Origin: Octopus sinensis
Lineage: Eukaryota
Reading direction: 5' to 3'
Assembly (NCBI RefSeq): GCF_006345805.1
Contig: NC_043005.1
Coordinates: 76,508,001 to 76,572,000, forward strand
DNA: 64,000 bases
Shown here in pieces: positions 2,042 to 60,935 of this stretch. The notes below the pieces were generated by a model. The model did not search any database. It saw only the letters and a list, made by a program, of their open reading frames with translations, and was not told the DNA's origin. A program made the position numbers and the translations under genes. Position 1 is the stretch's first letter. Every line of letters starts with the position of its first letter.

Positions 2042-3089
2042 GTGTGTGGTGTGTGTGTGTGTGTGAGTGTATGTGTGTGTGTGTGTGCGTGTCCTACCTC
2101 CGCTTCACAACCTCTGCTGGTGTGTTTACGTCCCCGTAATCTAGCGGTTCGCTAACGGAGACCCGATAGAATAAGTACTGAGGTTTAACTCTTTAATGTT
2201 CAGATTACTCTGTAAAATGTAATACTTTTTCACTCAAATTGTTTTGAATTAATCATGCACTATGTTATATCTTTGATGTTTCAATGATGTGATTGTCTAT
2301 TTTTAGAATGTCAATGTAGGTTAGGTGTAAGAAGCTGGATATGGCCAGTTTGAATATAAAACATATAGAATATCTGGGCCAGATATGGCCGGTTTAAACA
2401 CTAAAGGGTTAAATAAAAAATAAGTGCTGGTATTGGTTCATTCAACTAAAAGTTCGGCAAGGTGATGCCCCAGTATCGCTGCAGTCTATTGTCCGAAACA
2501 AGTAAAAGGAAAAAAACAAAAAAAAAAAAACAGGGTGACGGCGTATAGTCTCCGCAGTCGGTTGTGTGTACGGACTGAAATCGAAGATGATAGGATAAGA
2601 TATAATACATCATATAAAGGAATAATACATACTTTATTCCTTGCATTCTGCTTCAAACTCGTTTTGTGTTTCTTTTAGCCTTTCACCCTTCTAAATTAGA
2701 TGCAATTTCTTTCAGTAACAAAATGAATAGTCTCAATCGGTTTTATGGAAAAGATACGTCGTGAAATTAGCAAAAATAAATGAAGTCTACATCAAGATAG
2801 ACCATGGTTCGGGTCAATTACCAGCTGAAATAAGTCATTTCTCTGACATCGACCAATAACTTTTACAATGGCATTAACGGCACAGCATTATATTTCTGTC
2901 TTCTCTAAAAATAAAGGTCTTCTGAGAGTTTTCGGAAGCCATATTTTCAATGCTGCAATACAATAAGGGTCAAATATCTTGCTGTTTCAAATTTCGTAGA
3001 ATCCCATTTTATCTACTGACACTGTATAAAAGTTCCAAAATCATATATTTCTTATAACAGGCAATTATGATGGCAATAATTGTAGAATT

Positions 3090-3290
3090 CTAGGGCTGGC
3101 AGAATCGCTAAGCATTGGCGAAGTGCTTAGCAGTATTTCGTCTGCCGTTTCGTTCTGAGTTCAAACTCCGCCAAGGTCGACTTTGCCTTTCATTCTTTGG
3201 GGGTCTATAAATTAAGTACCAGTTGCCTACTGCGATCGATCTAATCGACTGGCCGCCTTCTCCAAAATTTCGGGCATTTCGCCCGGCGCA
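3090..3290 (+). mobile_element. SINE family 1, tail A (older copy)
   Basis: CTGGCAGAATCG...GTTCTGAGTTCAAACTCCGCCAAGGTCGACTTTGCCTTTCAT. Further diverged copies near 3570, 5190, 7010, 12060, 12300, 44840, 48330-48750, 53285. Confidence 0.8.
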
Positions 3291-3415
3291 CTAACGATTC
3301 TGCCACATGGCCGCCTCCTTTAACTTTCTAATATTGATACAAGAAGTAAGGCGGTGAACAGCTTTCCGCACGTCTTTACATCTCAAGTTCAAATTCTTTC
3401 CCCTACACACACACG

Positions 3416-15974: not shown

Positions 15975-16278
15975 CATGCAAACATACACACACATACAAA
16001 CATAAATATACATACGTGTATTCATACACATATATACACATATATACAAATATATACATATATACATATAGATATTAGTTTATTATGTAGAAAATGAAGA
16101 ACACTAAGGAAAAATAAGAAGAGATTCGTATCGTGGTTAAAGAAAACAGTTCATCTTTATTTTTTCTCGTATCTCTGACAAGTTAAGACATTCTATCAAT
16201 TCTTCTTGTATTGAAATAAAATCAGCCTTCTCACAGCTTATATATGAAAGTATCAAGGCGGCGAACTGGCAGAAACGT

Positions 16279-17982
16279 CGGTTGTGTTTTTTTCGGCTCG
16301 TGAAAATTTGTAAAAAAGAACAAAAGTGGGAAAATTGTTGTTGTTGTGGAATTTTGTACTTTTGTTGATGCGGTTTCGCGTTACACTGTTTCTACGCGTT
16401 ACACTGTTTCTGTTCGGGCGACCGTTTTCGGCCTGTCAGACAGAGGGAAATGGACGACCACTCCCTAGTGGAGGAGTCGGAGGAGGAATGGATATTTGAG
16501 AACTTGTCGGAGACATCGACCTCTGAAGACGAGCAAATCGGTGATGTAAATAATGTGGAGATAAAAAACAGGAAAACGTACGCAGGAGTTGCAAAAAGAA
16601 GACTGCACAGGAAAAGGAAATAAACCTAGAAAAATTGCCAGGTTTCCACAGGTATATGAGGAAGGACAGCGGTGAGGTCGAACTGGCACCACCACCAAAG
16701 AGAAAGGAATGGTACGAGAAAAGGACCATCATATACAGGGTGTTCGCAAGCGAAAAGAAAAAGATAGAAGTGGTGAATATGGAGTGGATAAATGAGGCGC
16801 TAAGAAGAACGGAAGAGGAAATCGAATTTCTGTCAAGAGGTTCAAAATATGGTACTGTAGTAGTACAGTTCAAAAGTGAGAAGGCAGCAAGGAAGATGGC
16901 GGCGAAGGCGGTGAAATCCGAGAAGGTAATACTTTTGCCTACGTATTTAAATAGAAAAATCACAAGAGTAAGGGTCGAGGGAATACCCCCAAACGTTGAA
17001 GCCGAGTGGATTGTGGCGGCTGTAATTAGCGGCCACGTGGATGAAGTGGACATTCTCCATGCCTCGGTTAAGACCGAGGGCTGGAGAGGCGTGACAGTGG
17101 AACTGAATGTGCAGGCAGAGAACGAGGTACTGGTGGACCTAACAGAAAACATCAGATTGGGAGACGTGATCATGAGAGTGTGGGTGGAGGGCAGGGCGCC
17201 CAGGTGCTATAAGTGTGGCCTGAGGGGTCACATAAGAGCCTACTGCCCTCCCCCACCAAGGGAAAAGGAAATCGTTGCGGAACCCCCAAGGGAGGAAGAA
17301 AATAAAGAAAAAGAGATCCAGACAGAGAAGGAAACGACAGAAGAAGAGGAGATCCAGCAAGAGTGGGAAGAAGGAAGGAAAAAAAGAAAGAGAAGAAGGA
17401 GAAAGGCAAACAACACGGTACACCAATCCAACCCAACACCACCCACACCCTCTGAGTCCCACCCTATCCCTGCAGACAGTGAACCCACCCGCTCCCCTCC
17501 AACAAGAAAACAAAAAAGTAATACACACAGACAAGAGACTGAAACCGAATCCGGGCGCTTTGTTCTGTGTAGGTTAAAAAAAGAAAGAGAGGACATAAAA
17601 GACATATTAGAGGGTTATCTAGGGTATGAAAAGGGGGACTGGAAATATGCAATGGTGAAGAGGGAAGAAATGGATGAACTGTTAGTGAGGTGCGAAAATA
17701 GAAATGTGAAAGTGGAGGAGAGGGTAGTTGGGGATAATACAAAGAATGAGTTTAAAAAAAGATATGCGATGGACTTGGAGAATATGTATATTGTAATTGG
17801 GGAGAACAATGGATGATAGGGTACGAAGGACAGGTAAGTGATGCTAGCGGATGGGGCCGTTAGCATCACTTTCATAATATCATTTTCAAAATTCATTTTT
17901 CATTCTTTGTAATTGTGATGTTCTATGTCCCCAATGTTTGTAGTGTCCCCTCTGTGTAGCCCCTCGTGAGTAATAAAGAAAT
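16279..17982 (+). mobile_element. ORF1-only non-autonomous L1/Tx1-type retroelement inserted in a SINE head
   Basis: 9-bp TSD CAGAAACGT at 16270-16278 and 17983-17991. Single gag-like ORF, no RT. 3' end TGTCCCCTCTGTGTAGCCCCTCGTGAGTAATAAAGAAAT. Confidence 0.85.
16450..17816 (+). CDS. ORF1/gag-like nucleic-acid-binding protein with CCHC knuckle (~455 aa if one frameshift at the A5 run 16593-16597 is repaired)
   Basis: ATG 16450 gives MDDHSLVEES...RKTYAGVAK, then shifts into the 393-aa ORF. RRM-like segments (GTVVVQFKSEKAA; RVRVEGIPP), CYKCGLRGHIRAYC, then acidic and basic tracts. Confidence 0.82.
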
Positions 17983-18870
17983 CAGAAACGTTAGACCGCC
18001 GGGCGAAATGCTTAGCAGTATTTCGTCTGTCGCTACGTTCTGAGTTCAAATTCTGCCGAAGTCGACTTTGACTTTCATCCTTTCGGGGTCGATAAATTAA
18101 GTACCGATGGCTTACTGGAGTCGATCTAACCAACTAATGCCCACCTCAAAAATTTTGGGCCTTGTTCCTAGAGTAGAAAAGTATATATGAAAATATCACC
18201 GTACGTGGAATCACGTAAGACCTGCTATATCTATTACCTATTTCAGAATGTCGAAACGTTTTCTTCTATTAATCATTCAATAAGACTGTACATTAATCTC
18301 TTTTATATTTTTGCTTCTTCTTTCTTTTTAATTATTGTGATCTTGTGTTGCTTTTTTAGACATTCTGGTAGTTTGTCGTGAGGCAGAATTACGTATGGTA
18401 GCCGTTGTAGATGTAAAAAATATAATGCATGTAAATAAAATATTAGAAGTTTAAACCTCCGGCCTTTTTTTACTATTGCTCTACAACAGGATATCGAAGA
18501 TATCCCCTCCCAGGAACTAATATTTGTGTTTGTATTTATTCCAAAGAACATTTTTCTTGGTAAAGATTGCATAATATATATATATGTGTGAGAGAGAGAG
18601 AAATTAGTTCAAGTAGAACATTTTGAACTGTTTTGGGTGTGTGTGCAAAAGTTAGATTTCTCATAAAGATTCTTCATAATTTGATTTAATTTTCCCATGT
18701 TTTCTTAAATGTCAGTATTATCATTCGAAACGATCGTATGGATTAGAAATTTATATAAAATTTTAACATCTTCTCTTCTCCATTTCTTTTTTAACCGTTA
18801 GTTGGGTTTATATAGGATTTTATCCTATAATACTCATAAGACATTTTTAATTATGTATATATATATACAT

Positions 18871-21380: not shown

Positions 21381-21708
21381 TCTCCGCCAACTCACTGCCT
21401 TCTCCGTCAGCTCACCATCTATAAGTTAAGACACTAAAATATATTTACTTTAAAATTATGCATTTTTCCTGCTTTGTTGTTTGTCTAGGAAACATAGACT
21501 TTATATTCAAAGAAGCGCTGGATATATTTATGAAAATCAATTGGTAAGTGATAAGAACAATAGTTATAGAATGATTGTTTTCTTCACGGATGGATGCTAT
21601 TCACAAAAGCAGAGGAGAGCACCAAAAGATTCTAAATATTATAGATGAGAATCTGACCTGCTGTATAACGGTACGAAACAGATCATATTTTTGTATTATT
21701 AGGCATAC

Positions 21709-22254
21709 GCCGGGCGAAATGCTTAGCGGTATTTCGTCTGTCATTACGTTCTGAGTTCAAATTCCGCCGAGGTCGACTTTGCCTTTCATCCTTTCGGGGT
21801 CGATAAATTAAGTACCAGTTACGCACTGGGGGTCGATGTAATCGGCTTAATCCGTTTGTCTGTCTTTGTTCGTCTTCTCTGTATTTAGCCCCTTGTGGGT
21901 AGTAAAGAAATAGGTATTTCGTCTGCCGTTACGTTCTGAGTTCAAATTCCGCCGAGGTCTACTTTGCCTTTCATCTTTCGGGGTCGATAAATTAAGTACC
22001 ATTTACGCTCTGGGGTCGATATAATCGACTTAATCCGTTTTTCTGTCCTTGCTTGTCCTCTCTGTCTTTAGCCCCTTGTGGGTAGTAAAGAAATTGGTAT
22101 TTCGCCCGTTGTTAGGTTCTGAGTTCAAATTCCGCCGAGGTCGACTTTGCCTCTCATCCTTTAACTAAGTACCAGTGATACACTGTGGTCAATAAAAGCG
22201 ACAAGTCCCCTCATTACCCCACAAACATCAGGCCCTGTGTCTACAATAGAAAGG
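21709..22254 (+). mobile_element. SINE family 1 trimeric array (tail B, tail B, tail A)
   Basis: ~183-bp units joined at AAAGAAAT(A/T)|GGTATTTCG. TSD ATTA(T/C)TAGGCATAC at 21695-21708 and 22255-22268. Confidence 0.88.
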
Positions 22255-22714
22255 ATTACTAGGCATACATAGTGATATATATATAGTCTAAGTATTATTA
22301 CAGATCTCAGAGAACTAGAGAGTTATCTAGGATCTTTATCCATTAACATAGAGTGGCTTTTACGTTTATGAGAATTATTGGGAGAAAACAATTAGTAATG
22401 CTTGTTTCACGAGAGCTAAGCTGTAATTTGGGCACTATCATACTGAATGTAGTAAGCCAGTGAATCTAATTTATTCAAATTACATAGTTAATTATGAAAA
22501 CAATCATTTTAAATGAATAATTCAGGCTAGAAAACCACAGGGAAAACTACCTTTAAAATTTCAATTAAAAATTATGCTAACTTCCGACGCATGAAATGAA
22601 AATATGAAATCATTTTAGTCACTCGAGTTATAAATACAATTCTCTTAAAAGAGAGTGATAATTAGTAGAGACTTTAAAATGTTGAATTGAGTATTTGATA
22701 TATTAGAGATACCG

Positions 22715-31595: not shown

Positions 31596-31797
31596 ATATG
31601 TATTATATATTATATATTATATATATGTTATATATATAATAGAAATATTAAAATAACTAAGTCTCTCTAAAAGAGAACAGCGGCAGCGTCCCGGAAAATA
31701 ATAGTTATCGCCATACTAATATGGCATCTTATAAAAATAATAAAAAAGCTGTCCGCTTATTAGCTCCATGAGGCCATCGCCTTAAGTTAGCTATTTG

Positions 31798-31897
31798 NNN
31801 NNNNNNNNNNNNNNNNNNNNNNNNNNNNNNNNNNNNNNNNNNNNNNNNNNNNNNNNNNNNNNNNNNNNNNNNNNNNNNNNNNNNNNNNNNNNNNNNN
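31798..31897. other. Assembly gap (100 N)
   Basis: Run of N. Confidence 1.
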
Positions 31898-32640
31898 AGC
31901 CTTAGGATTAATTAAATAACGTTTAATATTGTTTAATATTTTAATAATATTGTTAATTAGCCTTAAGATTAAATTAAATAACGTTAAATTGTTTTAAATT
32001 GTTTAATAATTCTTCAGATACTCTATCTTCTAATTAGCCCTTAAGATTAAATTAAATAAAACGTTTAATATTACCACACTCTAATATAATTTTAACATTG
32101 CTAATATATTTTCAGATACTCTATCTCTGATTAGCCTTAAGATTAAATAACGTTTTTTCCACACTCTTAATATAATATAATATTGCTAATATATTTCAGA
32201 TACTCTATCTTCGAATTAGCCTTAAGATTAAATTAAATAACGTTTAATATTATAACGTCTAATTAGCCTTAGAATTAAATTAAATAACTGGTTAATATTG
32301 CTTAATATTGTATATATAATTTTTCAGATACTCTGTCTCTAATAGCCATAAGATTAATTAAATAACGTTTAATATTACCACACTCTAATATAATATTAAT
32401 ATTGCTAAATATTTTCAGATACTCTATCTCCAAATAGCCTTAAGATTAAATAACGTTTTTTTTGTTTTGTTTTTTTTTACCCACACTCTAATATAATATT
32501 AATATTGCTAATATTTTTCAGATACTCTATCTCCTAATTAGCTTAAGATTAAATAACGTTTTTACCCAAATACACGTTTTACACAACTTTAATTTGTTAA
32601 TATTCTTTCAAGTACTCTATCTTCTAATTAGCCTTAATAT
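31898..32640 (+). repeat. AT-rich tandem repeat (~85-100 bp units) upstream of LINE ORF1
   Basis: Recurrent CAGATACTCTATCT..TAATTAGCCTTAAGATTAAATTAAATAACGTTT..CCACACTCTAATATAAT, about 8-9 imperfect units. Confidence 0.85.
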
Positions 32641-32698: not shown

Positions 32699-33560
32699 AT
32701 GTCCAGAGCATGGAGACGTGACGAGCTGGATTTATTCGTACGAGCATGGGAGTGCGCCGGCGGAGATAGCCCTAGCGAGGTGATTGCGGCTGCGCTGAAG
32801 AGCAGAGGCTACAAGAGGACAGCGGCTCAGATGGGCGAAAGAGACAGGAATTCGTGCGCTCATATGCGCTTGTACGGTCGCATTGGCGCACTTGAGGCCA
32901 TCTTTGAGAACGAGCGGGGCAAGATGGCAAGGAATGGAGACGATGAAAGAAGTCACCCCCCACCTGGTGGACGCCCAGGAGGAGGTTTGAATGAGAAACC
33001 TGCCCGGAAGTGAACCCAGGTGCAAGTTCTCCAACCGGCAGCAAGGGCCATGGAGACGGAGAACCCGGTGAAGAGGTAGAGGGAGGAAGAAGAACTAAAA
33101 GAAGGACTGGAAGAGCTAAAGGAAAAGAAAAAGCTCAAGCAGGACCAAAGAGAGAAACAACCAGGAGTAGAAGTGGAACCGCAAGGATGGAACCAAACAG
33201 CGCACACGGGTGTGTATGTTTCTACTGAGAGGTTCCTGCTGGCACGGAAAGGAAGGTGCAGGCTGCCGCTTTGCACATCGGGGACCCTGCCACAGAGACA
33301 CGAGGCAGATGGACAAACCATCAACACAAAGAAAAGGGATGGACTACGCACCACCTGCCCCAAAGCGGAGGTACGCAGATGTTGTGCGCGCCACAAACAG
33401 CCAACATTGATGTTGTCGAAAGAGCAGCTGCTGAGCAACAATCTTTTTTGTGCATGGCAAAAAGATTGTACAGCAGCTGACCTGGCTTCATCAAACCCAA
33501 GCCCGCAGGTGGGACTACCCACTATATACCAGACCACCACAGCAAACAGACACAGGATGG
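32699..33560 (+). pseudogene. Frameshifted LINE ORF1 (Myb/SANT-like start, CCCH finger)
   Basis: MSRAWRRDELDLFVRAW...GYKRTAAQ, then CMFLLRGSCWHGKEGAGCRFAH at ~33210. Confidence 0.72.
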
Positions 33561-36530
33561 ACACCGCCGGCAACAACGTACACCTCACCTCGATACTTAC
33601 TGAACATCAGAGGACTGCAAACACTCAGTAACAGGACAAAGATCCCGTTCCTGAGAGACTTTGTTGCATGCAATCAAGCCTTATGCATAGCACTTACAGA
33701 AACGCACCTGAAACCGGACATAGCAGATGCGGAGTTTACACATACCACAGTATGCTGTACTACGGACCGACAGGAAAGAAGGAGTCATGGAGGTGTTGCT
33801 ATGTACATCCGTGAGGACCTCACACCCCAGGTCCTCTTGTCCATACTCAAACTCGGTGTGTGACACACTAATTGTACATATTAGGCAACTTGATGTAGTT
33901 GTGTGTGCTACATATCGCCCTCCAGATGCCCCAAGCCATGTGGGCAAGTTTGAAGACTGCCTTATAAAAATAGAAGAAATTCTAACCACATTAGAACACA
34001 CATAGGTGTGCTTCTTATGGGAGACTTCAATCTGCCCAATGTCAGATGGCCCGAGGGCCTTTCTCTCCCAGGAATGACAAGATGTGAACGAGGACAGGCG
34101 AGGTCCCTCTGAACCTCATCAACACCCTGTACATGGAGCAGGTAATACTCCAACCAACCAGGGCAGGTAACACACGGATCTCTGCTTCACAAATGACATG
34201 GATCTCATCCATAATGTGAAAGTGACACCGACACTACTCTCGGATCACAACATGATAGAGCTGACCATGTACGGGCCAAAAGGAGTCACGGACATGCAGC
34301 CTACAAGAAACCCTCAAAATCTTTCCAGCTTGGACTACCATAAAGGCAAACTGGAAACAATTGAGAAATAGATCCTCAAACAAAACTGGCCTAAATTGTC
34401 TCTCCTCGCCAGACATCGACGTGAAACCTTCAACAATTCATGTCTGTAATGCAAGCATATATGCTACAAATGTGTCCCAGAGAGAAAGGCCACTGTACAC
34501 AAGAACAAAATCCCCAGAGAGAGGAAAATTTTAATGGAACGGGCGTAGCGAAATTTTCAAATCGCCTAAACAACAGATTGAAAGCAGTGAAAAGTCCCGC
34601 CTAAAAATAAAACTGTTGGAAATCGAAAAATGTCTGCAACTCTCCCATGAAAAAGAAAGAGCAGACAAAGAAGCTGGGCTATAGAAACATAAAATCTAAC
34701 CCCAGAGCTTTCTACAGGTATGCCAAAGAAACAGCTACGGTGCACTGTAGAATAGGGCCACTCTTCGAAAAGGATGGCACACTTACAGAAAACCAATGAG
34801 GGTAAGTTGAAATACTGAATGAGCAATTCGAGATGTTTTTCACTCCACCTCTTGGCATCTCCAAATCACCAATCCAACTGACTTTTTTACCACTGCAGGT
34901 ATAAAATCAGAGGCGGCGACGATAGATTACATCGAATAAAGGAGACGATGTAACCAAGGCTATAGATGAAATGAAAACAGACTCAGCTACTGGCCCCGAT
35001 GGATTCCCGGCAATCCTCCTAAAAGCATGTAAGAGAGTCCTAGCAAGACCACTGCAGTTCCTCTTCAGAGCTCCTTCAGCTGGCAAAACTTCCAGGAAAA
35101 CTGAAAGGAAGGTAAAATATGCCCCATTCATAAAGGAGGTAGCAGAGCGAAGCCAAGAAATATAGACCTATCCTCTGACCTCACACATCAGCAAGGTCAT
35201 GGAACGAATAGTCAGAAGGAAGCTGATCACCTTCCTTGAAGAGAATGACTTGCTGCCCGACACGCCAAACATGGTTCCGACCAGGGAGAAGCTGTTTAAC
35301 TCAACTCCTACACACTATGACTGGGTGCTGAAACGGCTGCTCAACCACTCAAATGTGGAAGTGATATATCTCGACTTTGCAAAGGCCTTTGATAAAGTCG
35401 ATCATGGAATGATATGTCACAAACTGCGTGATCTCAACATAGTTGGAAAACTGGAGAATGGCTTCATGACTTTCTGAAGGATAGAAGTCAGGTGGTAGTA
35501 GCCAATGGGGCCACCTCCATTAACACACAAAATAGTGAGCGGTGTTCCGCAGGGCACTGTTCTGGGACCACTACTGTTCAATAATGGCCCTCTCAGACAT
35601 GCCCTCAGCCACGCAGAGAGCCACGATCACAAGTTATGCAGATGATAACAAAAGTTTCACAGGCAATACAGAACCCTGAAGGACACTAAACACCTGCAAT
35701 GTGAGCTGGACGAAATATACAGTGGGGCTGAAAAGAATAGCATGCAGTTCAATGCTGAAAAGTTTCAAGCTTTATACTATCAGCATGCAAAACTGAATGC
35801 AATACCCAATGAATACACTGGACCCGGAGGGATTGCAATCCCAGAGGCACAATCAGTGCGTGACCTGGGTATTCACATGAGTGATGACGCGACCTTTCAT
35901 TACATGTTGCTAAACTGACAATGAAATGTCGACGGCTGGCTGGATTGATTCTTAGAACCTTTAGAACAAGAGAAGCAGAAACCCATGATGGTCCCTGGAA
36001 GACCACTTGTCCTAAGCCACTTTGACTATGCTCTCAGCTATGGTCACCATCCAGTGTCAAGTTGATCACAGAACTTGAGGCGATCCAAACTCAAACAACA
36101 AAGATAGCCTCTATGCAGAATGTAAGCTACTGGGAAAGACTCAAGAGATTCAAATTATATTCCCTGGAGCGTAGGCGGGAAAGATATGCCATAATATACA
36201 TCTGGAAGATCTGGAGGGAAGGGTCCTGAACTTTGGCATCGAGAGTTACGCAAATGCCAGAAACTGGGGACGCCACTGCGTGGTGCCTAGGACTCCAAAC
36301 CTGCCATCAAGATGTAGGCCAAGATTCTGTGATAGCCTGGGGCTTCCGAGGCCCACAGCTCTTCAACATATCCTCCGAAGAACCTGAGAGGCCTGCATGG
36401 GGTGGATACAGATGTCTTTAAAATGAAGCTGGATCTCTCCTGTCAGGTGTCCCCAGATGAACCAACTTCAAGGCAGGAGGGGCAGATGAGGGCCTGCATC
36501 GAACAAATCTCTCATGCACACCAAATAGCA
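33557..36530 (+). pseudogene. Frameshifted LINE ORF2 (APE + RT)
   Basis: LLNIRGL, ALTETHL, GGVAMYI, YRPP, MGDFNLP, SDHN, GPDGFPAILLK, YLDFAKAFDKVDH, GVPQGTVLGPLLF, YADD, scattered across frames. Confidence 0.92.
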
Positions 36531-36730
36531 GTTGCTAGAAAGCCTCCATGAAGTGAAACCAAGTAGCAACACCAAATGGCGGTGCCCAGCATGGCCACAG
36601 CTCATAAGCTGACTAGAAATCATCAATCAATCATCATATAGTATATATATATTATATATATAGATATATATATTATATGTATATATAGATATATGTATAT
36701 ATATATGTATATATATATAATATAATATAT

Positions 36731-38207: not shown

Positions 38208-41200
38208 TCAGGATTTGGGCACCAAGGCCCATTCGAGCAGAGAGTTATTGTTTGCGGAGACATATCCGGGTGTGGGTGGTTTGTCCGGTACTGTTTGAAG
38301 GAATTTGTCCAAAGACTTCTTGAATTTTGTGTGGTCAGTTTCTTTTTTGACGTGCCCTGGTGTAATGTTGAAGAGAGCAGGTCCAATTGAGGTGAAATAG
38401 TTGTGCCGTATTGTCGTTATGTGATGCGATTTAGATTTTTGTTGTGGACGGATGGCACGTGGTCCAAGCCTTGGATGCATTTTGAAGGTGATGCCAACAT
38501 CATTCGGACAGTGCTGGTGGAATATTTTCCACATCATACAGATAATGTAGCGTTCACGGCGTCGTTGGAGTGAATACAATTTCAGCTTCTCTAGTCTACC
38601 CCAGTAGTCAAGGTCTGACATGCCATCTATCTTTTTTGTGATTGACCTTTGGGGAGCTTCAATTCTCATAATATTTTGTTTTGTGTAGGGAGACCACAGT
38701 GGACAGCAGTATTCAAGGTGGGGTCGGGCAAAAGTGGAGAAGAGAAGGATAATAGCGTGGGAATCTCTCGACTGGAAGGTTCTGAGAATCCAGGAACACA
38801 TTCTGCGGGCCATGTCAACTTTGCTGCTTATATGTGTAGCCCAGCTTATGTTGTTGTCCACTGTTACTCCCAGGTCTCTGATGTTGTTGGATGCCATGAG
38901 AATTTCTCCAGAAGGAAGAGAGTATGGGAGTTTCAGAGCGTCCTCCCTTCCAAAGTGGATCAGTTCAAATTTGTCTTCATTTAGCAACATGTTATTCTTT
39001 TCCGCCCATTGGACAACAGCCAGTAGGTCTGACTGAAGGTTTATTCGGTCATCCACGCCATTGATGACCTTCTGGAGCTTGGAGTCATCAGCGAAGGTTC
39101 TGATGTTACTGTGTTTGATGGTATCAGTAATATCATTTATGTAGATGATGAAGAGAAGTGGGCCCAACACAGTGCCTTGTGGGACACCACTGCTGACTTT
39201 GGCTGGGCTGGATTTGACTCCTTCGACTACAACATGTTGGGTTCTGTTAGACAGGAAGCACTTGATCCACTGCAGCAACTTTCCAGTGACACCAATATTG
39301 GACAGCTTTCTCAGAAGGATCTTATGATCAACCCTGTCAAAGGCCTTGCTGAAATCAAGGTAGATGACATCAGTGTTGGAACCTTCTCCCAAGGCTCTCA
39401 AAATGTCATCAAAATGATGCAGTAGCTGCGTCAGGCAATCTCTCCCATTACGGAATCCATGCTGGTTGGGGTTCAGCATATTATGCCTCTCAAGGAAGTG
39501 AGTCATACGCGATCTCAGCACCCTCTCAAATACCTTGATGATATGAGAGGTGAGTGAGATTGGACGGTAATTCACGGCAAGCGATTTGTTTCCTTTTTTG
39601 AAAACTGGGACAACAGACTGGGATAGAAGGTCCTCTGGTATATATCCAGCATCCAGTGAGTTCCGCCACAGATTGGCTAGAGGGGGTGCAAGTTGGTTTT
39701 GACACATCTTCAAGACACAAGCAGGGAACCTATCGGGACCTACTGCTGAATTATGCTTCATTTCCTTTATTGCTGCTAAGACATCAGGAGCGCCAAATGT
39801 TATGTCCGATAACGTGTATTGGGGTGTAACATCACTGATACAGCCCAGATCAGTCATATCAGGATTGCTGAAAACAGAGCAATATTGTTTCTGCAATATC
39901 TCTCCCATGGTTTTGGCATTGTCTTGAAGAGTACCATTTTCATCAATCAGAGGGCCAACAGTAGAACCAGTGACTCTGTGTTTTTTTGCAAATGAAAAGA
40001 ACACTTTGGGATTGAGTTTGATCTTCTCAATGGCCCAGGCCTCTTCAGCTCTTCGCTGACTATTGATGATAGACATCATGTTGTTTTGGAGTTTATGTTT
40101 TTTAATCTCTAGCGACGAGATGGCAGTCAGGTTGGTGTGTTGCTGTTGACAGTATTTCAGCATGTTGATCTTTTTGTTGATTCTTTTAATTTTCCTTATG
40201 AGAGATTTTCTATTTCTAGGGATTCGACACTTAGATTTGTTTGCAGATCTTAATGGGGTGTGTCTTGCACATATGTTCGTGATGGTGTCTACAAGTGACT
40301 GCCAGGACTTTTTAATGTTAGTGGGTGTGTATGTGTGCGTGAAGGACCAATCGACTTGTGCAAGATCATTATTGATCGCTTCCCAGTTTGCATTGTGGAA
40401 ATCCATAGTGTCAAATGGATGAACAGGAGGGATGACATTTGTTTTGCATTTTGGCCAGTGAAATCTCAGATCACAGAGAACCATGTCATGGTCGGAGAGT
40501 AGGGTTTTCTCCACTGCAATATTGTGGATAGTATCAGTGTGATTGCTGAAAATTAAGTCTAAGACGTTTTTGTGACATCTCGTTGGTTCGAGTACCAGTT
40601 GGGACAAGAAGAAGTCATCCATGAAGTCAAGAAGCGATTCCACTGCCTCCCTGTCAGGGGTTGAGAGAGAAGAACCTGGCGGCAGACTGTTTGTAGACCA
40701 GTCAAACCCGGGAAGGTTGAAGTCTCCCATCATTAAAATGTTGTCAGGTTGACACTGCTGAATGAAACACTTTATGCTATTGAGGCATTCCTTGAAGCAT
40801 GGTAGGGGCGTTTGGGGTGATCTGTAGAGCCCAATTACTGTTAAGTTGTTGGTTTGACTGAATACAGCGACTACTTCGCAGTATCCATTCGAAAATATGT
40901 TCATGGCTTCTGTTGAGAATGAATCATGGACATAAATGGCAGTCCCACCCTTTCTTCTGCCAGCACGATCAGCACGAATGGTTTTGAAATTTTTAACTTT
41001 CACCTCGGCTTCCAAGTGGAGGTCACTAAGATGTGTTTCAGTGAGGACGAAGAAAGGGATGTGGTTTGGATGGACCTCGACCCAGTCCTCCAGGAATCTT
41101 ATCTTCCATTTTTGTGTATTGGTGGAAGGGCTGATGCCTTGGGCATTAAGCAGAAATGTTGAGGCGAGAGTGGATGGTTTTAATTGTTTTGGTGATTTGT

Positions 41201-41225
41201 TTATTTGATTGCTTTTTAATGGCAT
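38208..41225 (-). CDS. LINE ORF2: AP-like endonuclease plus reverse transcriptase, 1005 aa, uninterrupted
   Basis: APE motifs LNAQG, LTETHL, GGTAIYV, YRSP, MGDFN, LDLIF, SDH. RT motifs YRPISLTS, QHGFR, LDFSKAFD, GVPQGTVLGPLLF, FADD. No RNase H domain seen. Confidence 0.96.
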   Translation of the reverse strand: MPLKSNQINKSPKQLKPSTLASTFLLNAQGISPSTNTQKWKIRFLEDWVEVHPNHIPFFVLTETHLSDLHLEAEVKVKNFKTIRADRAGRRKGGTAIYVHDSFSTEAMNIFSNGYCEVVAVFSQTNNLTVIGLYRSPQTPLPCFKECLNSIKCFIQQCQPDNILMMGDFNLPGFDWSTNSLPPGSSLSTPDREAVESLLDFMDDFFLSQLVLEPTRCHKNVLDLIFSNHTDTIHNIAVEKTLLSDHDMVLCDLRFHWPKCKTNVIPPVHPFDTMDFHNANWEAINNDLAQVDWSFTHTYTPTNIKKSWQSLVDTITNICARHTPLRSANKSKCRIPRNRKSLIRKIKRINKKINMLKYCQQQHTNLTAISSLEIKKHKLQNNMMSIINSQRRAEEAWAIEKIKLNPKVFFSFAKKHRVTGSTVGPLIDENGTLQDNAKTMGEILQKQYCSVFSNPDMTDLGCISDVTPQYTLSDITFGAPDVLAAIKEMKHNSAVGPDRFPACVLKMCQNQLAPPLANLWRNSLDAGYIPEDLLSQSVVPVFKKGNKSLAVNYRPISLTSHIIKVFERVLRSRMTHFLERHNMLNPNQHGFRNGRDCLTQLLHHFDDILRALGEGSNTDVIYLDFSKAFDRVDHKILLRKLSNIGVTGKLLQWIKCFLSNRTQHVVVEGVKSSPAKVSSGVPQGTVLGPLLFIIYINDITDTIKHSNIRTFADDSKLQKVINGVDDRINLQSDLLAVVQWAEKNNMLLNEDKFELIHFGREDALKLPYSLPSGEILMASNNIRDLGVTVDNNISWATHISSKVDMARRMCSWILRTFQSRDSHAIILLFSTFARPHLEYCCPLWSPYTKQNIMRIEAPQRSITKKIDGMSDLDYWGRLEKLKLYSLQRRRERYIICMMWKIFHQHCPNDVGITFKMHPRLGPRAIRPQQKSKSHHITTIRHNYFTSIGPALFNITPGHVKKETDHTKFKKSLDKFLQTVPDKPPTPGYVSANNNSLLEWALVPKS

Positions 41226-42465
41226 GTGCAGTGGGGTATTTGTGGTGGATGGTGGTGGGTGATAGCTCGGATGTTTTTTTCCAGTTCTTTTGCTAGATTC
41301 ATCATAGCTAAAAAAGAGGAAGAAGAGGTGGTTTCCTGTCTAGGGAACCGCAGGTGACTGTGGCCGCGGCTATTTTTATGTGAGTGGTTATCTTTAAATG
41401 TCCGACGAGTCCCCGGGAGATGGGTAAAGGGGCAATCCCTGTGCAGACACAATCTGTCTCGCTGGGAATAGCGGCAGATTTGGGGATTCCTTGTTTGAGA
41501 TATTGGTGGTTGTGGTGGTGTTGTATTATGGTGGTTGCTGTTGTAGTTTGTGGGGATAGAGCGTTTTGTTCCAGGTAAATGGGTGAATTTGCAGTCTCTA
41601 TCAGTGCACAGTCTATGGCGAAGAGAATATCGGCAAATGATGGGGTTTCGAGTGGGTGTGTAGGTGCGTGTGTGTGAGTTGTGAAAGGTGTAGATGATAG
41701 TTTGTTGAAGTTTTGGCGACCTTTGTGACCTGTAGGAGGTAAATTCCTTGAGATAGCATTAGTAGTAGTAGTTGTAGTAGTAGGTAGAAGAGATGTTGAC
41801 AGTGGTAATGATTGAGGAGGTCGATTCCAAGACAAAGATATTTGTCGATACATAGTTGGAGTTGTACTAGTAGTAGTAAGCAGAGGAGATGGTGTTGACA
41901 CTGATGATGATTGAGCTGCTGGGGAAGTGAAAGGAAGGGGTGGTGCTTCCTGCTGTGTGACCCTGATGACTGGGGGGTCAATCGTTTCGTTTAGCAAATC
42001 GGCCATTGTAGATGAATCGAGGAGTGGTTCATCCTGTTGTTGTTGCTGTATCTGTTGTTGTTGCCGCTGAGTTTGTTGTTGAGGTTGTTGTTGTTGTTGC
42101 CGCTGAGGTTGTTGCTGCTGAAGTTGTTGTTGTTGCTGTAGCTGTTGTTGTTGTTGTTGCCGCTGAGTTTGTTGTTGTTGAGGTTGTTGTTGTTGTTGTT
42201 GCGCCGGTGATGCGTTCGAAGAGAAAACACATCTCAGTTTATCGAAGTGTTTATTTATTAATTTAAAAGCAACTTCGATTTGTTTTAATTTATTTTGTAT
42301 CTGCTGTTCAGATCGAGTTTGCAAATGGTGAACTGCTCGTTTAGCAATTTCGTTCAGATACGAAGCACCTATGCTCTCTGTTTCGGTAAGGCCATGCCAT
42401 GTGTTGATAAGAACGTCGACTTCATTATCAGACCAGTTTTTGTTGGATTTTTGGTGGCTAGCCAT
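41216..42465 (-). CDS. LINE ORF1 with one frameshift: Myb/SANT-like N-terminus, polyQ, S/T/P linker, two CCCH zinc fingers
   Basis: N-terminus WSDNEVDVLINTW...RSEQQIQNKLK. The -1 frame, open ~41758-41216, encodes CRYSLRHRLCTDRDCKFTH and CRYSQRDRLCLHRDCPFTH. Its TAA overlaps the ORF2 start (ATGCCATTAA). Confidence 0.8.
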
Positions 42466-42876
42466 TCTGGTTGATATGTTTTATTAAATTTTATTTTGTT
42501 CGTTTGTTTTGTTGATTACTTTTAATTATTATTATTTTTTTTTAAGGAGAAGTATGTAGAATTGATTGTACAGAATGTTTGCTGTAATACTGAGAAGTTT
42601 GTATTTGAATTATGAGTTTGTAGTTATTTTATCTTTCTTTCCTTTTCTTTTTTTCCCTCTTTTTCTAATTTTTAATGTGTGGGTGATCCTTTAGTTATCA
42701 GAAGGTGTTTGAAAATATTTGGTCGTTTGAAAATTATGAAAATAGTTTGTGGTTAAGGAAAAGTCTACTCACGAGTTGGGAAAAAGCGTGGTTTCAAATA
42801 TACAGGAATATATGTGATGGTCAATTACGACGAATGTAGCTGTGAAGCTTGCTGCTGACCGGCGCAGAGAGGAGTG

Positions 42877-46668: not shown

Positions 46669-47258
46669 TATTGTTTTATTGCCCACTGAGGGCTAAACAT
46701 AGAGAGGACAAACAAGGACAGATAAAATGATTAATTCGATTACATCGAACCAGTGCGTAACTGGTACTTATACCGAAAGGATAAAAGGCAAAGTTGGCCT
46801 CAGCGGAATTTGAACTCAGAACGCAACGGCAGACGAAATACCTATTTCTTTACTACCCACAAGGGGCTAAACACAGAGAGGACAAACAAGGACAGACAGA
46901 CGGATTAAATCGATTATATCGACTCCAGTGCGTTACTTGTACTTAATTTATCGACCCCGAAAGGATGAAAGGCAAAGTCGACCTCGACGAAATTTGAACT
47001 CAGAACGTAATGGCATACGAAATACCTATTTCTTTACTACCCACAAGGGGCTAAACACAGAGAGGACAAACAAGGACAGACAAACGGATTAAGTCGATTA
47101 TATCGACTCCAGTGCGTAACTGGTATTTATTTAATCGACCCCGAAAGGATGAAAAGCAAAGTCGACCTCGGCGGAATTTGAATTCAGAACGTAACAGCAG
47201 ACGAAATACTGCTAAGCATTTCGCCCGGCGTGCTAACGTTACTGCCAGCTCGCCGTTC
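46669..47258 (-). mobile_element. SINE family 1 trimeric array (three tail-B units)
   Basis: One head plus three bodies. 18-bp TSD CACCAGCTTGAATATATT at 46651-46668 and 47259-47276. Confidence 0.9.
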
Positions 47259-60505: not shown

Positions 60506-60935
60506 CTTTTCTAATCTCGGCACAAGGGCCGAAATTTGTGGGGAGGGTGCCAGTCGATTAGATCGGCCCCAGTACGCAACTGGTACTTAATTCATCTACA
60601 CCGAAAGGATGAAGGGCAAAGTTGACCTCGGCAGAATTTGAACTCAGAGCATAAAGACACACGAAATACTTCTAAGCATTTCGCCTGGCGTGCTAACGTT
60701 TCTTATTCCTTTATTGCCCACAAGGAGCTAAACATAGAGGGGACAAACAAGGACAAAGGAATTAAGTCGATTACACCGACCCCAGTGCGTGACTGGTACT
60801 TAATTTATCGACCCCGAAAAGATGAAAGGCAAAGTCGGCCTCGGCGGAATACAAAGGCAAAGTCGACCTCGGCGGAATACAAAGGCAAAGTCGAACTCGT
60901 CGTCCTAACGTTTCTGACAGCTCGCCGCCTTTTTG
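60506..60935 (-). mobile_element. SINE family 1 tail-A copy with a tail-B copy nested at AGAAACGTTAG
   Basis: Outer TSD ACAGTAGAATATT at 60493-60505 and 60936-60948. AGAAACGTTAG occurs on both sides of the inner copy, which has an internal ~25-bp duplication. Confidence 0.83.

What the first reader, a model, noticed from the sequence alone, without database searches (positions are those of the whole stretch)
16239..18198. ORF1-only Tx1/L1-type retroelement nested in a SINE head and sharing its 3' tail with a SINE subfamily
Seen: a 1.7 kb insertion with a 9-bp TSD (CAGAAACGT) splits a family 1 SINE at its A-box-like region. It encodes only a CCHC-knuckle ORF1 and ends TGTCCCCTCTGTGTAGCCCCTCGTGAGTAATAAAGAAAT, closely matching SINE tail B (TGTCCTCTCTGTGTTTAGCCCCTTGTGGGTAGTAAAGAAAT). 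A 13-bp stem hairpin follows the stop (~17839-17870). Known: ORF1-only non-autonomous elements exist (HAL1, HeT-A), Tx1-clade elements often target multicopy sequences, and SINEs borrow LINE 3' ends. Inference: a three-part system of an unseen autonomous Tx1-like LINE, this ORF1-only derivative and a tail-B SINE, with a preference for SINE heads as landing sites.
Basis: partly seen in the sequence, partly recalled or inferred. Interest (0 to 1): 0.85.

Follow-up and report, generated by a model that had tools for sequence, protein, structure and literature searches.

The report
Octopus half-LINE sharing a SINE tail
A 1.7-kb mobile DNA insert, likely from an octopus, encodes only a predicted RNA-binding protein, ends like a family of short repeats and sits inside another short repeat; it is likely a hitch-hiker copied by the enzyme of an unseen full-length partner, which probably favours such sites loosely rather than strictly.

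Summary
The anatomy is real. Public contigs show related copies in all 4 runs laid, one contig (96% alike, different 3' flank) with the same ORF1-to-UTR junction, and differences among copies biased to silent sites (14 of 24). The hairpin-UTR is 30-43 times deeper than the ORF1 C-terminus, so a larger family shares it: the likely partner, whose ORF2 I could not see. Strict SINE-head targeting is not supported: 0 of 3 other visible junctions lie in that site, though one tail-B SINE in the window and one contig do, so it is a recurrent hot spot. Tx1 membership is untested without a reverse transcriptase. Verdict: probably a HAL1-like ORF1-only LINE derivative, a new variant of a known kind.

The parts
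16239..16255 (+). left target duplication of the host SINE (17 bp, 1 mismatch to the right copy)
16256..16278 (+). 5' piece of the host SINE head, including the left copy of the 9-bp duplication
16270..16278 (+). left copy of the 9-bp duplication; its last 4 nt are probably also the element's own 5' end (inferred)
   Evidence: contig ends at 16274/16275 in X6, X2, X9 (tables 3, 8)
16279..17982 (+). ORF1-only non-LTR retroelement, 1,704 bp; no LTR, no TIR, no endonuclease or RT remnant
16279..16449 (+). 5' UTR, T/G-rich, with an 18-bp-spaced direct repeat at 16377 and 16395
16450..16623 (+). N-terminal frame of ORF1; carries the family's basic-Tyr-Ala motif; frameshift near 16595
   Evidence: profile score 57.7 bits read through with X versus 48.5 for the main frame alone
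16554..17816 (+). main frame of ORF1 (420 aa stop to stop)
16725..17186 (+). two tandem RRM-like folds (model residues 24-95 and 100-177; predicted)
17202..17249 (+). single CCHC zinc knuckle
   Evidence: 20 of 26 aligned members hit zf-CCHC at E<=1
17517..17816 (+). C-terminal ORF1 segment of a low-depth subfamily; predicted small alpha/beta domain; not matched by a profile of other members' C-termini
17836..17871 (+). 15-bp RNA hairpin in the 3' UTR, shared with a larger family from 17826 on
17944..17982 (+). 3' tail shared with tail-B SINEs; AATAAA inside; no poly(A)
17983..17991 (+). right copy of the 9-bp duplication; first 2-4 nt also matched by two other copies' ends
   Evidence: table 8 (X9 records 29, 30)
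17992..18181 (+). remainder of the host SINE, tail A type
18182..18198 (+). right target duplication of the host SINE
60704..60897 (-). supporting case: 5'-truncated tail-B SINE inserted at the same site of another SINE head (11-bp exact duplication)
46669..47258 (-). supporting case: three-unit SINE array with one head; two internal tail-B ends each followed by SINE body at a second fixed position; 18-bp duplication around the whole array

Best explanation
The insert is likely a non-autonomous, ORF1-only LINE derivative (HAL1-like, probably of the L1/Tx1 group) whose RNA would be copied into the genome by the reverse transcriptase of an unseen full-length partner that likely also moves the tail-B SINEs. 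Shown: the duplication, the split host SINE, the lone ORF1, the hairpin and the shared tail; related copies in 4 of 4 runs laid; one other copy with the same ORF1-to-UTR junction and another flank. Predicted: two RRM folds before the knuckle. Inferred: the family makes ORF1 protein that coats its own RNA (silent-site bias among copies), the conserved hairpin-plus-tail UTR recruits the partner's ORF2 protein in trans, and target-primed reverse transcription starts at a short purine-G-C|purine-rich motif, helped by 2-4 nt of end microhomology. SINE heads carry that motif and are abundant, so they are hit repeatedly but not exclusively. This copy is probably dead (frameshift, private changes mostly non-silent).
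For: Anatomy. ORF1 type: tandem-RRM proteins fill the top 40 Foldseek rows shown (best E 1e-4), La RRM Z 8.7, rmsd 2.5, 79 aligned; Atlas neighbours are CCHC and ZCCHC3-RBD clusters at 0.90-0.93 (leads only). Family: 346 cluster representatives at E<=0.001; all 15 of 30 looked-up proteins that carry a species name are from Octopus or Argonauta. Copies: 3-8 contigs per DNA run over 17721 (table 3); X9 record 29 spans 17489-17986 with 18 differences and 1 gap, then 26 unlike letters. Selection: 14 silent of 24 segregating changes against 0.33 expected for transitions, p 0.009; private changes 1 silent of 6 (from the 40 of 275 rows shown). Larger family: depth over 17810-17929 is 30-43 times that over 17570-17809 in 3 of 3 DNA-sized runs, with loose ends before 17826 in 7, 7 and 9 contigs (table 7). 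Motif: contexts of duplication-defined sites.
Against: No ORF2 was seen, so partner and clade are inferred; a search for longer or fused forms found none (weak). Only one contig bridges the ORF1-UTR junction, no listed piece spans the whole element, and summed contig depth is not a copy number. The larger family has other sequence after 17515 and before 17826, and its nearest named ORF1 is only 54% identical with a different C-terminus, so the insert is not a plain deletion of that family. The motif rests on about six sites and was read from them. No Pfam ZCCHC3-RBD or Transposase_22 hit appears among the 25 of 26 families shown for 26 members.
Confidence: 0.65

Rival explanations
1. One reading: a Tx1-type endonuclease specifically targets SINE heads, and both the ORF1-only element and tail-B SINEs are steered there; repeated self-insertion would build the SINE arrays.
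For: Same site and orientation hit by a tail-B SINE at 60704 (chance 0.002 for 1 of 3 under uniform insertion) and by X9 record 32. 5 of 5 tails of the G-T-A-G-T subtype are followed by SINE body at one fixed position, and the terminal units differ in tail type. Tx1-Mar and SINEU share two preferred regions in one transposon (PMC4494074, section 16 read).
Against: 0 of 3 other element junctions visible in contigs continue into the SINE site (X9 records 25, 29, 30); high-depth DNA contigs stop 5 nt into the flank. 2 of 3 tails of the other subtype sit in AT-rich non-SINE DNA with 15- and 18-bp duplications. A loose motif gives 0.13 for 1 of 3 (motif read from the same sites). Each array has at most one head and a duplication around the whole, as a composite SINE moving as one unit would.
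Confidence: 0.2
2. A one-off: a full LINE copy lost ORF2 during or after this insertion, or an ORF1 transcript switched template onto a 3' UTR; no ORF1-only family exists.
For: The C-terminal segment is the rarest part of the element; single contigs join 17517 to 17812 or 17826 in other ways (table 5), so several rearranged forms exist; this copy is frameshifted.
Against: A 96%-alike contig with another flank has the same junction; several distinct variants of the C-terminal segment occur in three DNA-sized runs; no endonuclease or RT remnant lies between stop and hairpin (tested only with a CR1-type ORF2).
Confidence: 0.1
3. The tail was taken from the SINE by the element (or both converged on a short recognition signal), so element and SINE need not share one partner.
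For: The match is firm only over ~41 nt, patchy over ~65 nt; no conserved fold of the tail (z +1.2 to -2.7 for four B-type tails).
Against: The whole 160-nt UTR with the tail is shared by a larger long-element family (records X9-30, X5-16); SINEs taking LINE 3' ends is the documented direction (PMC3747384, passages).
Confidence: 0.07
4. A gag-only LTR element or a host gene retrocopy.
For: CCHC knuckles also occur in gag and host proteins; gene models name homologues 'uncharacterized protein'.
Against: No terminal repeats (best end-to-end scores 23 and 16), a LINE-style shared tail, a type I ORF1 layout, many diverged copies.
Confidence: 0.02

Closest known systems
HAL1 (half-L1), HeT-A, Ag-Sponge: ORF1-present bipartite non-autonomous LINEs (PMC5786205 and PMC5753468, passages)
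   Same: Encodes only ORF1; 5' and 3' LINE parts kept; presumed mobilised in trans.
   Different: Those derive from L1, Jockey and CR1 clades as listed there; here ORF1 is RRM-RRM-CCHC, the host is a mollusc, there is no poly(A), and the 3' end is shared with a SINE subfamily.
Tx1-Mar LINEs with SINEU in crocodilians (PMC4494074, passages and section 16)
   Same: A long element and a SINE that share preferred sites inside another repeat, with two hot spots.
   Different: There the LINE is autonomous, RT-classified, and the target a Mariner transposon with 13-90% of SINEU copies flanked; here the target would be a SINE head and the preference is unproven.
L1-Tx1 families of Octopus vulgaris (PMC13282606, parts 1-2 of 3 and supplement search)
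   Same: 80 families, 56 Mb, 13 recently active: a pool in which the partner could lie; the element may already be an unnamed consensus in that library.
   Different: The text read describes no ORF1-only family, no SINE partner and no target preference; the library itself (Zenodo) could not be read.
Type I ORF1p (RRM + zf-CCHC) (PMC5203782, passages)
   Same: Domain layout; the paper calls such ORF1s in non-mammalian animals consistent with Tx1.
   Different: Type I ORF1s also occur in other clades (recalled), so the layout does not fix the clade.

Membership tests
ORF1-present non-autonomous LINE (HAL1-like class) | Encodes ORF1 only, no endonuclease or RT | tested here: met
ORF1-present non-autonomous LINE (HAL1-like class) | Target duplication and LINE-type 3' end, no LTR or TIR | tested here: met
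ORF1-present non-autonomous LINE (HAL1-like class) | Several independent insertions of the same short form | tested here: inconclusive
   one other contig with the same junction and another flank; several variants of the subfamily-specific segment; no full-length copies seen
ORF1-present non-autonomous LINE (HAL1-like class) | ORF1 under purifying selection | tested here: inconclusive
   14 silent of 24, p 0.009, but from 40 of 275 rows that mix subfamilies, so it may reflect autonomous relatives
ORF1-present non-autonomous LINE (HAL1-like class) | Autonomous partner with matching ends | not testable with these tools
   no genome held; only indirect signs of a larger family
HAL1 proper | Derived from mammalian-type L1, with Transposase_22 (type II) ORF1 | tested here: not met
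   ORF1 is RRM-RRM-CCHC; no Transposase_22 hit for the window's protein at E<=1
Tx1 clade | RT phylogeny places the (partner) element in Tx1 | not testable with these tools
   no ORF2 in the insert; none found linked
Tx1 clade | Type I ORF1 (RRM + CCHC) | tested here: met
   layout not exclusive to Tx1 (recalled)
Target-specific element (Kojima's criterion: >20% of flanks in one repeat, PMC4494074) | More than 20% of copies flanked by the same repeat | tested here: inconclusive
   element: the window copy yes, 0 of 3 other junctions; tail-B SINEs in the window: 6 of 8 followed by SINE sequence at two fixed positions
tRNA-derived SINE (host) | tRNA-related head with A and B boxes | tested here: inconclusive
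   no ARAGORN or Rfam tRNA match; box labels recalled

The most novel reading that the evidence does not exclude
Octopods carry an old radiation of 1.7-2.2-kb ORF1-only Tx1-type elements that, together with tail-B SINEs, ride one endonuclease which cuts at two fixed positions in the promoter region of the genome's most abundant SINE, so that the SINE is both passenger and landing pad and builds its own head-less arrays.
Probability: 0.2. Interest if true: 0.72.

Novelty: new variant of a known kind. Interest (0 to 1): 0.48.

Why it matters
SINEs are about 11.6% of the O. vulgaris genome (PMC13282606), and in the papers I read their partner LINEs are not named. A long element that shares the tail-B end points to the partner's ORF1 family and gives a 160-nt probe to find it. 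It would also extend ORF1-only non-autonomous LINEs to a type I ORF1 and to molluscs, and let one compare two parasites (one paying for ORF1, one not) of the same enzyme. If the SINE-head hot spots prove to be true targeting, it would be a self-targeting loop that knocks out or rebuilds SINE promoters.

Tried and rejected
Longer or fused ORF1 forms: none among 8,000 candidates; a core-only search found nothing, not even the known homologue, so it is insensitive. No endonuclease or RT domain in 128 homologues scanned (127 of the 150 listed plus one cluster member), which says little because ORF1 and ORF2 are separate frames. Metagenome scans: 0 matches for a UTR pattern, 0 of 593 candidates confirmed for a distant subgroup. 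The two CR1-like LINEs in the window (38211-42480 minus; about 32700-36620 plus) do not share either SINE tail (scores 13-24), so neither is the partner. No second ORF1 copy in the window. A profile of eight homologues' C-termini does not recognise the window's C-terminus (1.6 bits), so homology there is not claimed. The 30-letter loose-end consensuses before 17826 (agreement 0.64-0.75) were too short to call ORF2; a motif search of 151 stored proteins found none. No RNA holder is on record; X9 is only guessed to be RNA, so nothing is said on expression. Rfam: nothing at gathering score in the window, only chance-level matches in the element. Earlier scan notes: none. Literature: eight searches listed no paper describing an octopus ORF1-only element or SINE-head targeting; Repbase, Dfam, the Zenodo library and Bao and Jurka 2010 could not be read, so absence from print is not shown.

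Full report
Observation. The 9-mer CAGAAACGT flanks a 1,704-bp insert at 16279-17982. Without it, the flanks form one SINE that aligns without gaps to an intact copy over about 165 nt and has its own 17-bp duplication. The insert ends in 39 nt that match tail-B SINEs (85.4% over 41 columns, E 2e-7); 8 of 8 B tails score 50-61 against the UTR, 2 A tails 16-19, and 2,000 shuffles at most 46. The hairpin is 15 bp (17836-17871; z -6.8, stretch chosen for it). SINE-like sequence covers 7.3% of the window.

Host. No genome is held. The best named homologue of the ORF is an Octopus sinensis protein at 54% identity, and all 15 of 30 looked-up homologues that carry a species name are from O. sinensis, O. 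vulgaris, O. bimaculoides or Argonauta hians. The window is therefore likely from an octopus (inference).

The protein. The main frame is 16554-17816. An upstream ATG at 16450 opens another frame that carries the family's N-terminal motif; a profile of 15 homologues scores the read-through with X at 57.7 bits from position 1, against 48.5 from position 14 for the main frame. ORF1 is thus about 455 aa and is broken near 16595 in this copy (a mutation or an assembly slip in an A run). The AlphaFold model (mean pLDDT 77.6) has two beta-alpha-beta-beta-alpha-beta units, a knuckle, a long helix, a disordered linker and a small C-terminal domain. Foldseek returns tandem-RRM proteins (best E 1e-4, 19 at E<=0.001); the wide search gives the La RRM at Z 8.7, rmsd 2.5, 79 aligned. 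This is a type I ORF1, which PMC5203782 (passages) calls consistent with Tx1 in non-mammalian animals; other clades share the layout (recalled), so the clade is not fixed. phmmer finds 346 cluster representatives at E<=0.001; in a tree of 26 core sequences (2 of 27 homologues dropped as too short) the window's protein pairs with the O. sinensis one (96/89) inside a deep radiation.

Other copies. Twenty of 24 listed runs hold part of the stretch; I laid 4. All cover the element, in contigs only. Three points follow. (a) The subfamily-specific segment is multi-copy: 4, 8 and 3 contigs cover 17721 in X6, X2 and X5, with pieces differing by 1 in 140 to 14 in 115 letters. X9 record 29 runs from 17489 across the stop, hairpin and tail to 17986 with 18 differences and 1 gap, then has 26 unlike letters: a second locus with the same junction. 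It is the only listed contig that bridges that junction. (b) Of 30 variant rows in the frame (from 40 of 275 shown), 24 segregate among copies and 14 are silent (0.33 expected for transitions; p 0.009; two of the non-silent rows are one double change); the 6 that all runs share against the window are 1 silent and 5 not. So the family's ORF1 has been under selection and this copy has decayed since. (c) Depth is uneven: 17810-17929 is 43, 30 and 35 times deeper than 17570-17809. Scaled by single-copy depths that I read off the empty-SINE joints (20, 52, 6.5), that is roughly 11-23 against 390-690; the tool warns that summed depth is no copy number. Loose ends before 17826 (7, 7, 9 contigs) show a larger family with other sequence upstream of the hairpin. 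X9 record 28 leaves at 17515 and has 781 further letters with no second piece listed; record 30 has 459 unlike letters before 17828; the window has only 310 nt between these points. A longer relative, possibly with ORF2, is the simplest reading, but its letters were not seen. Of 11 Logan or ENA clusters looked up, 6 have a longest contig of 1.7-2.25 kb, 1 of 1.1 kb, 1 of 3.5 and 6.2 kb and 3 above 36 kb; this fits more ORF1-only families but short contigs are common, so it is weak.

Target choice. For: a truncated tail-B SINE at 60704-60897 sits at the same position and orientation in another SINE head, with an 11-bp duplication; X9 record 32 shows a tail followed by that site; under uniform insertion 1 of 3 has chance 0.002. 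All 5 tails of one subtype are followed by SINE body at a second fixed position. Against: X9 records 29 and 30 leave the window 4 and 2 nt after the tail, and record 25 begins at 16275 with its first letter unaligned, while variant rows at 16306 and 16309 place contig ends at 16274 in X6 and X2 too. So 0 of 3 other junctions lie in the SINE site, and the element's ends probably overlap the duplication by 2-4 nt (inferred from coordinates). Two of 3 tails of the other subtype sit in AT-rich DNA (15- and 18-bp duplications). The sites with clear duplications mostly follow a purine-G/A-C triplet; a loose motif of that kind occurs 403 times in the window, 18 SINE sites among them, which makes 1 of 3 unremarkable (0.13; circular, since the motif came from these sites). 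The arrays have at most one head and a duplication around the whole (18, 14, 13 bp), so they may be composite SINEs rather than repeated insertions; their differing terminal tails argue the other way. This stays open.

Mechanism. Shown: anatomy, tail sharing, a second junction copy. Predicted: RRM folds. Inferred: a Pol II transcript makes ORF1 protein; the hairpin-tail UTR recruits a partner's ORF2; target-primed reverse transcription starts at a short motif with end microhomology; tail-B SINEs use the same enzyme. PMC5786205 (passages) proposes that such ORF1 proteins multimerise with the partner's and aid transposition.

Comparison. It works like HAL1, HeT-A and Ag-Sponge but is not HAL1 proper: its ORF1 is type I and it has no poly(A). 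The LINE-plus-SINE hot-spot pattern resembles Tx1-Mar and SINEU. L1-Tx1 families are known and active in O. vulgaris. Eight searches listed no description of this element; repeat libraries could not be read, so it may exist there unnamed. Other papers seen as passages only: PMC3747384, PMC4758252, PMC10351740, PMC8967140, PMC9115989.

Verdict. Probably a real ORF1-only LINE derivative with a SINE-shared tail (0.65); strict SINE-head targeting 0.2; new variant of a known kind; interest 0.48.

Noticed in passing
window 46669-47258 (-), 21707-22258 (+), 22716-about 23090 (+): SINE arrays of 2-3 units with at most one head; each internal tail-B end is followed by SINE body at the same position; terminal tails differ; duplications of 18, 14 and 13 bp flank whole arrays. 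Self-insertion or composite family is unresolved.
   Followed up: partly
window 38211-42480 (-): Apparently intact CR1-like LINE: 1,043-aa frame with endonuclease and RT, upstream 390-aa frame with a weak Myb/SANT-like hit and a glutamine run; short tandem tail unrelated to the SINE tails.
   Followed up: partly
window about 32700-36620 (+): Second, decayed CR1-like LINE with many frameshifts and a short ATCA-type repeat tail.
   Followed up: partly
window 31700-32640: AT-rich tandem repeat of roughly 90-100 bp units next to a 100-N assembly gap (31798-31897), directly upstream of the decayed LINE.
   Followed up: no
window 17857-17866: The hairpin's 3' arm contains 8 nt identical to the SINE head just downstream of the insertion site; by rough reckoning about a 1 in 10 chance match, not tested.
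   Followed up: no
table 8, X9 record 27 (17166-17256): A contig identical to the knuckle-coding 91 nt and unlike the element afterwards; this segment is also the deepest part of ORF1, suggesting exchange of the knuckle segment between families.
   Followed up: no
proteins P0007, P0013, P0014, P0015, P0023, P0057, P0102, P0136: Many octopod ORF1 homologues end in a shared C-terminal domain of about 70 aa with no Pfam name; several gene models fuse ORF1 pieces to host domains (P0074 LDL-receptor A, P0133 WD40), probably annotation merges.
   Followed up: partly
window 3080-3320: Two SINE pieces in opposite orientation: a SINE followed by an inverted head fragment.
   Followed up: no
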